Below, in pieces: positions 540 through 1,090 of a stretch of 4,439 nucleotides of DNA. Source of the DNA: a virus (taxonomy: Duplodnaviria; Heunggongvirae; Uroviricota; Caudoviricetes); the IMG/VR virus record IMGVR_UViG_3300029157_000003. One strand, 5' to 3'. Within the stretch, counting starts at the first letter, position 1; each line of letters begins with the position of its first letter. Below the pieces are notes generated by a model. It made no database searches. It was not told the DNA's origin and saw nothing but the letters and a program-made list of their open reading frames with translations. Made by a program: the position numbers and the translations under genes.

Positions 540-555
540 ATTGAGTTTTCTCAAT
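540..555. promoter_or_regulatory. Candidate operator: 16-bp palindrome ATTGAG-TTTT-CTCAAT (OR-like copy)
   Basis: Perfect inverted half-sites ATTGAG / CTCAAT with a 4-bp spacer, overlapping the predicted -10 and transcription start of the leftward promoter. Its core TTGAGTTTTCTCA recurs exactly at 1077-1089. Confidence 0.5.
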
Positions 556-583
556 GCTAATCACTCAAGGAATCTCAAGTCAA
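554..583 (-). promoter_or_regulatory. Putative sigma70 promoter for the leftward Cro-like/YdaT operon
   Basis: On the minus strand: -35 TTGACT (plus coordinates 583-578), 18-bp spacer, -10 TAGCAT (559-554), then the operator palindrome, the RBS and ATG 527. Sequence prediction only. Confidence 0.4.
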
Positions 584-604
584 GGATTATTAAGATATCT
601 AAAT

Positions 605-1012
605 ATGAACGAGAAAACTTTAGGTCAACGCATTAGAGAAAGACGTAAGCAGGTAGGCTTAAGTCAAAACGGTTTAAGCAAAGCTGCTGGCGTATCTGGC
701 TCATCAATTTCATTATGGGAAAGTGACCATACAGCCCCGCGCGGGCAAAATTTGCATCGCCTCGCCGAGGTATTGCAATGTTCACCAACCTGGATACTGT
801 TTGGCGACGAGGACAAAACACCAGCTCCCCCTGTTTCACTCGATAGTACCCTAGACTTATCGGAAGATGAGTTAGAGATGCTGCGTTTGTATCGCGCACT
901 TCCTAAATCAGAGCAACAAGCACAACTCAGCGAACTCCGCGCCCGCGTTGAGAATTTTAATCGCCTGTTCACCGAGCTATTAGAGGCTCGCAAACGCAAC
1001 AAGCATCAATAA
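605..1012 (+). CDS. XRE-family HTH transcriptional repressor (prophage immunity repressor, RacR-like position); 135 aa from ATG 605, alternative upstream start ATG 554
   Basis: ORF 554..1012 in the track. Translation from 605 begins MNEKTLGQRIRERRKQVGLSQNGLSKAAGVSGSSISLWESDHTAP, a canonical N-terminal XRE/Cro-CI HTH. The C-terminal ~70 aa are helical and charged (LSEDELEMLRLYRALPKSEQQAQLSELRARVENFNRLFTELLEARKRN) with no S24 peptidase Ser/Lys motif. Divergent from the Cro-like gene. No clear SD before either start, so it may be near-leaderless. Confidence 0.8.
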   Translation: MNEKTLGQRIRERRKQVGLSQNGLSKAAGVSGSSISLWESDHTAPRGQNLHRLAEVLQCSPTWILFGDEDKTPAPPVSLDSTLDLSEDELEMLRLYRALPKSEQQAQLSELRARVENFNRLFTELLEARKRNKHQ

Positions 1013-1075
1013 TCATCCCTTCACAAAATTTTAAAGCCTTACATTTCAATGTATTGGCTTTATCTTGCGCCAACA

Positions 1076-1090
1076 CTTGAGTTTTCTCAT
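1076..1090. promoter_or_regulatory. Candidate operator, second copy (OL-like): CTTGAGTTTTCTCAT
   Basis: Exact 13-bp match TTGAGTTTTCTCA (1077-1089) to 541-553, with inverted half-sites TGAG/CTCA. It lies 10 bp upstream of the -35 of the rightward early promoter. Confidence 0.5.

What the first reader, a model, noticed from the sequence alone, without database searches (positions are those of the whole stretch)
540..1090. Identical 13-bp operator-like motif on both flanks of the repressor gene
TTGAGTTTTCTCA occurs exactly twice, at 541-553 and 1077-1089. The first overlaps the predicted -10 and start site of the leftward Cro-like/YdaT promoter; the second sits just upstream of the -35 of the rightward early promoter. 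With the repressor gene in between, this mirrors the OR/OL arrangement of lambda, which would make these the immunity operators of this prophage. A 13-mer recurring by chance within about 500 bp is very unlikely.
Basis: partly seen in the sequence, partly recalled or inferred. Interest (0 to 1): 0.55.

Follow-up and report, generated by a model that had tools for sequence, protein, structure and literature searches.

The report
Prophage repressor operators, DicA/Qin type
The repeated 13-mer is real and is best read as the core of the repressor-binding sites of a common E. coli prophage related to the K-12 Qin element; this is a textbook arrangement in which only the site sequence is new.

Summary
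Observation confirmed. TTGAGTTTTCTCA occurs exactly at 541-553 and 1077-1089. It is positions 3-15 of an 18-bp two-fold symmetric site, TTGAG-N4-CTCAA.

- An inverted copy at 1113-1126, over the spacer and -10 of the rightward promoter.
- Two weaker copies at 565-578 and 590-603.

This gives three sites 24 and 25 bp apart between the divergent genes, and two sites 36 bp apart around the rightward promoter.

The gene between them encodes a full-length DicA-family repressor whose N-domain resembles the P22 C2 repressor and which has no self-cleavage domain. The leftward gene encodes a DicC (Cro-type) protein. The rightward operon is ydfA-ydfB-ydfC-dicF.

In E. coli K-12 Qin the same aligned positions hold different palindromes, including Oc, the experimentally supported DicA site. 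A third immunity type holds yet another palindrome. So the site sequence changes together with the recognition helices of both regulators.

In Buttiauxella the three strong sites are 12-14/14 conserved, while the surrounding intergenic DNA past the repressor gene is about 48% identical. In the functional phage mEp460_ev081 the only near-perfect copies in 45.9 kb are these.

This is a heteroimmune member of a known system, so interest is low. No binding was tested here.

The parts
540..555 (.). O_R1: ATTGAGTTTTCTCAAT, a perfect 6-4-6 palindrome with core 541-554. It overlaps the last 2 nt of the leftward -10 and the expected transcription start.
   Evidence: It aligns with K-12 Oc, TTGTTAGTCATAACTAACAA. 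It is 13-14/14 conserved in Buttiauxella.
564..579 (.). O_R2 candidate: CTCAAGGAATCTCAAG (core 565-578, 2 mismatches). The right half-site is good. The left half is the half-site in direct rather than inverted orientation. It overlaps the spacer and -35 of the leftward promoter.
   Evidence: It lies 24 bp from O_R1, the same place as K-12 Om. It is only 11/14 conserved in Buttiauxella. Om was not bound by DicA in vivo. Weak candidate.
589..604 (.). O_R3 candidate: ATTAAGATATCTAAAT (core 590-603, 2 mismatches), abutting the repressor ATG and covering a -10-like TAAGAT.
   Evidence: It lies 25 bp from O_R2, the same place as K-12 Oa. It is 14/14 conserved even in Citrobacter braakii, where O_R1 has drifted, so its conservation may reflect the promoter or Cro-like binding rather than the repressor.
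1076..1091 (.). O_L1: CTTGAGTTTTCTCATC (core 1077-1090, 1 mismatch).
   Evidence: It is 12-14/14 conserved in the four relatives of the same immunity type, including Buttiauxella. K-12 and GmF052 carry their own palindromes at this position.
1112..1127 (.). O_L2: AATGAGAAAACTAAAT (core 1113-1126), in inverted orientation relative to O_L1. It covers the spacer and the first 4 nt of the rightward -10.
   Evidence: (repeat I3). It lies 36 bp from O_L1 and is 12-14/14 conserved in those same four relatives.
554..583 (-). Leftward promoter of the Cro/DicC-like and YdaT-like genes: TTGACT, 18-nt spacer, TAGCAT.
   Evidence: The -35 GTCAAG block is invariant across the five relatives aligned (one search adds K-12, which reads GTCAAT there). 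It corresponds to K-12 dicCp, whose start site was mapped by 5'RACE.
1100..1128 (+). Rightward early promoter, the dicBp equivalent: TTGACG, 17-nt spacer, TAAATT.
   Evidence: The -35 aligns with K-12 TTGACC upstream of ydfA. dicBp is the experimentally used promoter of the dicBF operon.
605..1012 (+). Repressor gene, 135 aa, DicA family, heteroimmune to K-12 DicA.
   Evidence: NCBIfam DicA, 239 bits, full length. Pfam finds HTH_3 only. Residues 1-72 match the P22 C2 N-terminal domain at E = 8e-16. It is 56% identical to K-12 DicA, with a different recognition helix.
300..527 (-). Cro-type gene, 75 aa, DicC family. The N-terminal helix-turn-helix is specific to the immunity type and the C-terminus is shared.
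   Evidence: NCBIfam DicC, 165 bits. Pfam P22_Cro. Alignment.
1..316 (-). YdaT-family gene, cut by the window edge, second gene of the leftward operon.
   Evidence: the Pfam YdaT_toxin hit is weak. RefSeq names it.
591..596 (+). Putative -10 (TAAGAT) of the repressor's own promoter, 8 nt before the ATG. There is no Shine-Dalgarno sequence, so the mRNA is probably leaderless or nearly so.
   Evidence: Read from the sequence. TAGCAT in K-12 and TAGAAT in GmF052 sit at the same place. Inference only.
1032..1066 (+). Terminator-like hairpin plus U-rich tail between the repressor gene and O_L1.
   Evidence: -11.3 kcal/mol, z = -3.4. The loop TTTCAATGT is conserved in relatives. The simple terminator scan did not call it.
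1205..1360 (+). ydfA-like gene (DUF1391), first gene of the repressed rightward operon. It is followed by ydfB-like (1362-1490), ydfC-like (1520-1738) and DicF (2081-2132).

Best explanation
The two 13-mers are the cores of operators of a lambdoid immunity region of the DicA/DicC (Qin, mEp460) type.

Layout. A 135-aa DicA-family repressor (605-1012) is flanked by two groups of sites.
- O_R1, O_R2 and O_R3 lie between it and the divergent Cro/DicC-like gene.
- O_L1 and O_L2 lie around the promoter of the ydfA-dicF early operon.

Proposed mechanism (inferred). A repressor dimer reads each 18-bp site with its P22-C2-like helix-turn-helix. [quoted passage not shown]
- Bound at O_R1, it blocks the leftward promoter at its -10 and start site. 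By analogy with K-12 DicA at Oc, it also activates its own weak promoter about 57 bp away.
- Bound at O_L2, with O_L1 as an upstream partner, it blocks the rightward promoter.
- The Cro-like protein most likely uses the same sites to shut off the repressor gene.
- The repressor has no self-cleavage domain, so release is expected through an antirepressor, as Rem does in Qin, rather than through RecA-stimulated cleavage.

Shown here: the sites, their symmetry, their positions relative to the predicted promoters, their conservation, and their co-variation with both regulators.

Inferred: binding itself, which protein binds which site, self-activation, and the induction route.
For: 1. Site set and geometry. 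There are five matches to TTGAGNNNNCTCAA, all intergenic, spaced 24, 25 and 36 bp apart.
2. Positional homology. K-12 Qin has Oc, Om and Oa spaced 25 and 25 bp apart, and two dicBp sites 35 bp apart, at the aligned positions. Oc was shown by in vivo assays to be the DicA site, to overlap the dicC -10, and to be needed for dicA expression.
3. Co-variation. Three E. coli immunity types carry three different palindromes, each repeated on both sides of its own repressor gene. Over 15 loci, the longest word shared between the region upstream of the repressor gene and the region downstream of it averages 11.7 nt within a locus and 7.8 nt between immunity groups. None of 20000 permutations reached the observed value. 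The recognition helices of the repressor and of the Cro-like protein change in step.
4. Phylogenetic footprint. Against Buttiauxella (repressor 73-76% identical), O_R1 is 13-14/14 conserved, O_L1 12-13/14 and O_L2 12-13/14. The rest of the downstream intergenic region is 47-49% identical.
5. Specificity. In the 45.9-kb functional phage mEp460_ev081, the only hits with 0 or 1 mismatch are O_R1 and O_L1. Five of the 13 hits with up to 2 mismatches lie within 586 bp (binomial P = 4e-7).
6. Protein identities.
7. The central TTTT/AAAA of the three strong sites fits P22 repressor behaviour. That protein does not contact the central 4 bp and binds A-tract centres most tightly.
Against: - No binding data exist for this immunity type. 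The motif string appears in no paper of the searched library.
- O_R3 is fully conserved even where O_R1 has drifted, which fits a promoter element as well as an operator.
- O_L1 lies upstream of the -35 and does not by itself occlude the promoter.
- The location of the DicA site at dicB was listed as unknown and low-evidence in a 2020 survey.
- The promoter calls are consensus matches only.
Confidence: 0.88

Rival explanations
1. The sites belong only to the Cro/DicC-like protein, and the DicA-like repressor recognises something else.
For: The Cro-like recognition helix also changes with the site sequence. O_R3 is identical between the window type and Citrobacter braakii, which share the Cro-like helix (D-P/R-SAVSQW) but differ in the repressor helix.
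Against: In K-12 the positionally equivalent Oc depends on DicA for its in vivo effect, and one base change abolishes that effect. O_R1, O_L1 and O_L2 track the repressor helix. In all studied lambdoid switches both proteins share the operators (general knowledge; summarised).
Confidence: 0.05
2. The sites are conserved for a reason unrelated to the phage regulators, for example binding of a host nucleoid protein, a recombination junction between modules, or a DNA-bending element of the promoters.
For: The sites are AT-rich with an A-tract centre. They lie within 60 bp of the right-hand boundary where homology to other immunity types resumes. Nucleoid proteins influence this locus in K-12.
Against: A host-factor site would not change sequence with the phage's immunity type while keeping its position. 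The sites lie inside the immunity-specific segment, not at its edges. Two-fold symmetry with a 4-bp centre matches the dimeric P22-C2-type domain encoded next to them.
Confidence: 0.04
3. The repeat is a coincidence in AT-rich intergenic DNA.
For: 12 of 1000 shuffles of the first 2270 nt gave a direct repeat of 13 nt or more. The count of loose matches in the window is only about twice the expectation.
Against: Only 1 of 2000 shuffles matched it between the two intergenic regions. The sites are conserved in Buttiauxella against about 48% background identity, show co-variation and cluster in the phage genome (P = 4e-7).
Confidence: 0.01

Closest known systems
dicA-dicC-dicB immunity-like locus of the E. 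coli K-12 Qin cryptic prophage (operators Oc, Om, Oa and the dicBp operators)
   Same: - The gene order is the same: ydaT-like, dicC-like, then divergent dicA-like, then the promoter, then ydfA-ydfB-ydfC-dicF.
- The repressor and the Cro-like protein pass the NCBIfam DicA and DicC models over their full length.
- The sites occupy the same aligned positions with the same spacing.
- The flanks are near-identical outside about 435-1140.
   Different: - The operator half-site is TTGAG here, against TTAGT in K-12.
- The repressor recognition helix is SGSSISLW against SHVSVSQW, and the Cro-like helix is DPSAVSQW against RLASLYSW.
- The two are therefore predicted to be heteroimmune. That prediction was not tested.
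Bacteriophage P22 c2 repressor and its 18-bp operators
   Same: - The N-terminal domain is homologous (E = 8e-16 to 1adr and 2r1j).
- The site is 18 bp and two-fold symmetric with a central 4-bp segment. In P22 that segment is not contacted, and A-tract centres bind best.
   Different: - P22 C2 is 216 aa and is cleaved in the SOS response, while DicA-type proteins are 135 aa and lack the cleavage bond.
- Pfam finds no protease domain here.
- The half-site differs: P22 has a TTAA-type half-site.
Lambda OR/OL with CI and Cro
   Same: - The repressor and cro genes are divergent, with three evenly spaced sites between them.
- A second operator set controls the other early promoter beyond the repressor gene.
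- The repressor gene has no Shine-Dalgarno sequence and a -10 close to the ATG, as for cI transcribed from PRM (the lambda detail is from general knowledge).
   Different: - There is no sequence similarity between the operators.
- Only two clear sites lie at the far promoter, 36 bp apart and straddling the -35.
- There is no self-cleaving C-terminal domain.
- Any activating site would lie about 57 bp from the repressor start rather than adjacent to the -35.
Antirepressor-controlled prophage repressors (Gifsy GfoR/GfhR; Qin DicA with Rem)
   Same: The repressor is short and non-cleavable. The functional phage with this same immunity region, mEp460_ev081, carries a rem-like gene. Rem relieves DicA repression in K-12.
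   Different: No antirepressor gene lies in this window. The pairing with this repressor variant is untested.

Membership tests
Lambdoid immunity region (repressor flanked by two operator sets) | Divergent repressor and cro-type genes separated by a short regulatory region | tested here: met
   The genes are 605-1012 (+) and 527-300 (-), with 77 bp between them.
Lambdoid immunity region (repressor flanked by two operator sets) | Several related two-fold symmetric sites overlapping the divergent promoters | tested here: met
   Sites start at 541, 565 and 590, spaced 24 and 25 bp apart. O_R1 lies over the -10 and start site of the leftward promoter. The two weaker sites are only candidates.
Lambdoid immunity region (repressor flanked by two operator sets) | A second set of the same sites at the early promoter on the other side of the repressor gene | tested here: met
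   Sites start at 1077 and 1113 around TTGACG-17-TAAATT. No third site was found.
Lambdoid immunity region (repressor flanked by two operator sets) | Site sequence changes with repressor specificity between heteroimmune relatives | tested here: met
Lambdoid immunity region (repressor flanked by two operator sets) | Repressor and Cro physically bind the sites | not testable with these tools
   The only evidence is homology to K-12 Oc, for which DicA binding is supported in vivo.
Lambda CI / P22 C2 class of SOS-cleavable repressors | C-terminal S24 peptidase-like self-cleavage domain | tested here: not met
   Pfam gives only helix-turn-helix families for the 135-aa protein. The literature states that DicA lacks the Ala-Gly cleavage bond.
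DicA/DicC module (Qin type) | Repressor passes the DicA family model and the partner passes the DicC model | tested here: met
   NF007257 scores 239 bits against a cutoff of 101, covering 1-135/135. NF007282 scores 165 bits against a cutoff of 130.
DicA/DicC module (Qin type) | Repressed operon ydfA-ydfB-ydfC-dicF-dicB downstream | tested here: inconclusive
   DUF1391 (ydfA) and the DicF RNA are found. ydfB and ydfC are named by RefSeq in relatives. dicB itself is not visible because of the 100-N run at 2274-2373. It is present in relatives.
DicA/DicC module (Qin type) | Same operator sequence as K-12 (Oc, TTGTTAGTCATAACTAACAA), that is, the same immunity | tested here: not met
   A different palindrome occupies the aligned position. 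The element is in the same family but is predicted to have a different specificity.
P22-C2-type operator recognition | Homologous DNA-binding domain and an 18-bp symmetric site with a 4-bp centre | tested here: met
   for the domain, for the sequence, and for the P22 site model. Whether the centre really is uncontacted here is not testable.

The most novel reading that the evidence does not exclude
This DicA-type switch may use a binding geometry unlike lambda.
- The middle site between the divergent genes has its half-sites as direct rather than inverted repeats.
- The two far sites straddle the -35 at 36 bp, with their A-tract centres in opposite orientation.
- The repressor lacks the usual oligomerising protease-like domain.

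The short conserved C-terminal domain could therefore mediate a different kind of pairing. One possibility is wrapping of the promoter between O_L1 and O_L2. Another is a loop between the two operator sets about 530 bp apart. Separately, the family offers a natural series of matched recognition helices and half-sites (TTGAG, TTAGT, TTAGA, and a TAAC-TTTT-GTTA type) from which a recognition code could be read.
Probability: 0.15. Interest if true: 0.45.

Novelty: new member of a known kind. Interest (0 to 1): 0.25.

Why it matters
This immunity type is common. 797 of 5426 complete E. coli genomes carry at least 80% of bases 300-1210. It also occurs in viable temperate phages (mEp460_ev081 and HannyBb).

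The module controls the dicF small RNA in this window and, in relatives, the cell-division inhibitor gene dicB, so knowing its operators helps predict when these toxic genes are expressed. It also helps predict which prophages are immune to each other.

The matched sets of sites and recognition helices found here are a ready-made test bed for specificity in P22-C2-like domains. None of this changes current understanding. It extends a scheme described for Qin in the 1980s.

Tried and rejected
1. A possible sixth site inside the repressor coding sequence (608-623, AACGAGAAAACTTTAG) was rejected. It is not conserved in Buttiauxella and exceeds 2 mismatches in the symmetric frame.
2. No third site was found upstream of O_L1. 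A TTGAG half-site there in strain NRZ96606 is absent from the window.
3. A 14-nt best-match matrix between the two intergenic regions was too noisy in AT-rich DNA (background 10-11 of 14). It was replaced by the longest exact shared word.
4. The original operator papers could not be read. Bejar 1986 is not held, and Bejar 1988, in a subscription journal, was not looked up. What they say is taken second-hand.
5. A literature search for the motif string found nothing for this type. The lambdoid mosaicism paper that includes mEp460 does not discuss operators.
6. Reading the palindrome as an RNA hairpin or terminator was rejected. Its arms are only 5 bp, and a separate, better hairpin lies upstream at 1032-1062.
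7. The conserved leader downstream of the promoter was examined as a structured RNA. The single-sequence fold is no better than shuffles, and the alignment of seven sequences gives only 2 compensatory pairs. This is left as a side note.

Full report
**1. The observation**

TTGAGTTTTCTCA occurs exactly at 541-553 and 1077-1089 on the + strand.

A direct repeat of 13 nt or more, with copies no more than 600 nt apart, arose somewhere in the N-free first 2270 nt in 12 of 1000 dinucleotide-preserving shuffles. A shared word that long between the two intergenic regions (528-604 and 1013-1204) arose in 1 of 2000 shuffles. So the repeat is unlikely to be chance, though by itself not overwhelmingly so.

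**2.

The 13-mer is part of a palindrome. Site 1 reads ATTGAGTTTTCTCAAT (540-555), a perfect 6-4-6 inverted repeat. A one-mismatch copy lies inverted at 1114-1126.

Scanning the window with TTGAGNNNNCTCAA at up to 2 mismatches returns five hits. All five lie in the 269 nt of intergenic DNA on either side of one gene.

| Site | Core start | Mismatches | Position |
|---|---|---|---|
| O_R1 | 541 | 0 | over the last 2 nt of the leftward -10 and the expected start site |
| O_R2 | 565 | 2 | over the spacer and -35 of the leftward promoter |
| O_R3 | 590 | 2 | abuts the repressor ATG |
| O_L1 | 1077 | 1 | ends 9 nt upstream of the rightward -35 |
| O_L2 | 1113 | 2 | over the spacer and first 4 nt of the rightward -10 |

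The spacings are 24 and 25 bp in the first group and 36 bp in the second.

**3. Genes and promoters**

- The gene at 605-1012 encodes a 135-aa protein that matches the NCBIfam DicA model end to end (239 bits, cutoff 101).
- Pfam finds only helix-turn-helix families in it and no protease domain.
- Its residues 1-72 match the N-terminal domain of the P22 C2 repressor (1adr and 2r1j, E about 1e-15).
- The leftward gene at 527-300 matches the DicC model and Pfam P22_Cro. It is followed by a YdaT-family gene.
- Rightward come a DUF1391 (ydfA) gene, ydfB-like and ydfC-like genes, and the DicF RNA at 2081-2132.
- The consensus scan places a leftward promoter at TTGACT(583-578)-18-TAGCAT(559-554) and a rightward one at TTGACG(1100-1105)-17-TAAATT(1123-1128).

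O_R1 therefore covers the end of the leftward -10 and the expected start site. O_L2 covers the spacer and -10 of the rightward promoter.

**4. Comparison with K-12 Qin**

The window's flanks are near-identical to the Qin prophage of E. coli K-12, but the segment from about 435 to 1140 is replaced.

At the aligned positions K-12 carries other palindromes. TTGTTAGTCATAACTAACAA sits where O_R1 is. Two more sites follow, each 25 bp on. Two sites 35 bp apart surround the TTGACC -35 upstream of ydfA.

The first of these is Oc. Yun et al. (PMC3441716) reported the following.
- Single base changes in Oc allow cloning of the otherwise toxic promoter fragment.
- Oc confers dicA-dependent repression in an in vivo assay, and one base change abolishes it.
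- Oc overlaps the -10 of the dicC promoter, whose start was mapped by 5'RACE.
- DicA at Oc is needed for dicA expression.
- The two neighbouring sites, Om and Oa, were not bound in that assay.

Ragunathan and Vanderpool (PMC10448788) restate, citing Bejar 1988, that both intergenic regions hold three lambda-like operators. They also report that dicBp upstream of ydfA is strongly repressed by DicA, that DicA is short and lacks the cleavage bond, and that the Qin protein Rem acts as its antirepressor.

**5. Co-variation**

A third E. coli immunity type (strains GmF052 and 1436) has TGTTAGA-N4-TCTAACA-type sites at the same three strong positions.

Thirteen further loci came from a scan of one genome per species. 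They range from 99% to 44% repressor identity.

| Group | Repressor recognition helix | Site type |
|---|---|---|
| Window type, including two Buttiauxella species | S-G/D-SSISLW | TTGAG-TTTT-CTCAA |
| K-12 type, including a Citrobacter | SHVSVSQW | TTAGT half-site |
| GmF052, Yersinia, Rosenbergiella | HVTISQW | TTAGA half-site |
| Escherichia whittamii and an unnamed enterobacterium | SSVSVFKW | TAAC-TTTT-GTTA |

The Cro-like recognition helices change in step: DPSAVSQW in the window type, RLASLYSW in K-12 and RLASVAAW in GmF052.

Over 15 loci, the longest exact word shared between the region upstream of the repressor gene and the region downstream of it averages 11.7 nt within a locus. Between different immunity groups it averages 7.8 nt. 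None of 20000 permutations reached the observed value.

**6. Footprint and specificity**

Between the window and Buttiauxella (repressor 73-76% identical) the conservation is as follows.

| Element | Conserved |
|---|---|
| O_R1 | 13-14 of 14 |
| O_L1 | 12-13 of 14 |
| O_L2 | 12-13 of 14 |
| Rest of the intergenic region past the repressor gene | 47-49% |
| O_R2 | 11 of 14 |
| O_R3 | 14 of 14 |

O_R3 is 14/14 even in Citrobacter braakii, where O_R1 has drifted to 11/14. That species shares the window's Cro-like helix but not its repressor helix. O_R3 may therefore be mainly a Cro-like site, or part of the repressor's own promoter.

In the complete 45.9-kb genome of mEp460_ev081 the only matches with 0 or 1 mismatch are O_R1 and O_L1. 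That phage is described as a functional temperate phage isolated from the infant gut virome. Five of its 13 matches with up to 2 mismatches fall within 586 bp (binomial P = 4e-7). Phage HannyBb carries the same sites.

**7. Mechanism proposed**

The site fits the P22 repressor model. That protein binds as a dimer to an 18-bp site, contacts positions 2-7 and 12-17, leaves the central four bases uncontacted, and binds A-tract centres most tightly (PMC4267663).

The three strong sites here all have TTTT/AAAA centres. The two weak ones have GAAT and ATAT.

I infer three things.
- The repressor at O_R1 shuts off the Cro-like/YdaT operon. As reported for K-12, it also activates its own weak promoter. 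The centre of O_R1 is 57.5 bp from the repressor ATG, against 59.5 bp for Oc in K-12.
- The repressor at O_L2, helped by O_L1, shuts off the ydfA-dicF operon.
- The repressor gene has no Shine-Dalgarno sequence and has a -10-like TAAGAT 8 nt before its ATG. K-12 and GmF052 have TAGCAT and TAGAAT in the same place. This suggests a leaderless message like lambda cI.

Release is probably through an antirepressor, because there is no self-cleavage domain and mEp460_ev081 has a rem-like gene. All of these steps are inference. No binding was tested.

**8. Rivals**

- Exclusive use of the sites by the Cro-like protein is unlikely, given the dicA dependence of Oc in K-12.
- A host-factor or junction element does not explain why the sequence changes with immunity type while the position stays fixed.
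- Chance is excluded.

**9. Novelty and score**

The arrangement has been known for Qin since 1986-88 and is the standard lambdoid scheme.

What is new is only the site sequence and layout for this particular immunity type. The motif string is absent from the searched literature. The type is common: 797 of 5426 complete E. coli genomes carry at least 80% of bases 300-1210.

I rate it a new member of a known kind, interest 0.25.

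Noticed in passing
window 2081-2132 (+): A full-length DicF small RNA (Rfam RF00039, 76.7 bits, model 1-52/52) lies in the long non-coding stretch after the ydfC-like gene, as in the Qin dicBF operon.
   Followed up: yes
window 2274-2373: There is a run of exactly 100 N, probably a scaffold gap or mask. In relatives, dicB and a small ydfD/DUF1482 gene lie between dicF and the exonuclease gene, so dicB is probably hidden here. The sequence after the gap starts just upstream of a long exonuclease ORF.
   Followed up: partly
window 1032-1066 (+): A hairpin (AAGCCUU...GGCUU, -11.3 kcal/mol, z = -3.4) followed by UUAUCUU lies right after the repressor stop codon. 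It probably insulates the repressor transcript from the operators and promoter beyond it. Its loop is conserved in Buttiauxella, and E. whittamii has a clearer terminator at the same place. The simple terminator scan did not call it.
   Followed up: partly
window 463-476 and 680-693: A perfect 14-nt inverted repeat, ACGCCAGCAGCTTT / AAAGCTGCTGGCGT (repeat I1). Both arms encode the same peptide, K-A-A-G-V, at the turn of the helix-turn-helix, one in the Cro-like gene and one in the repressor gene on the opposite strand. Relatives with other residues there lack it. It could be coincidence of identical codons or a trace of exchange between the two genes. This is unresolved.
   Followed up: partly
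window 1134-1204 (+): The leader of the rightward operon is nearly identical across all E. coli immunity types. It contains two small hairpins (CACCG-CA-CGGTG and CCCC-GGCGTTAA-GGGG) after a conserved GTTCCGCT. More distant relatives keep a hairpin there with changed stems; some read GCCG-GAAAGA-CGGC, reminiscent of lambda boxB. It is possibly a nut-like antitermination site. Support is weak: the fold is no better than shuffles and there are 2 compensatory pairs in 7 sequences.
   Followed up: partly
window 591-607 (+): The repressor ATG at 605 has no Shine-Dalgarno sequence and sits 8 nt after a -10-like TAAGAT, suggesting a leaderless mRNA. One phage record (HannyBb) instead annotates the longer 152-aa ORF starting at the ATG at 554, inside O_R1. 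The family model and all homologues support the 135-aa form.
   Followed up: partly
window 2404-4439 (+): A long ORF running off the window end (at least 678 aa) has a C-terminal Rv2179c-like 3'-5' exoribonuclease domain (Pfam PF16473, E = 4e-48, residues 541-677). It has a CxxC...CxxC motif near 3760-3795 and a long acidic, Q/E-rich middle region. RefSeq names the homologue 'exonuclease'.
   Followed up: partly
L007 and L008 (genome contigs): Contigs 99% identical to this E. coli prophage region are filed under metagenome-assembled genomes named Bacillota bacterium and Veillonella parvula. This is almost certainly a binning error rather than host range.
   Followed up: no
window 2070-2270; hit H23: The record of Aeromonas phage AP1 (254 kb) holds a stretch 98.5% identical to the dicF region. 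That is odd for an Aeromonas jumbo phage. It may be contamination, a chimeric assembly, or recent transfer.
   Followed up: no
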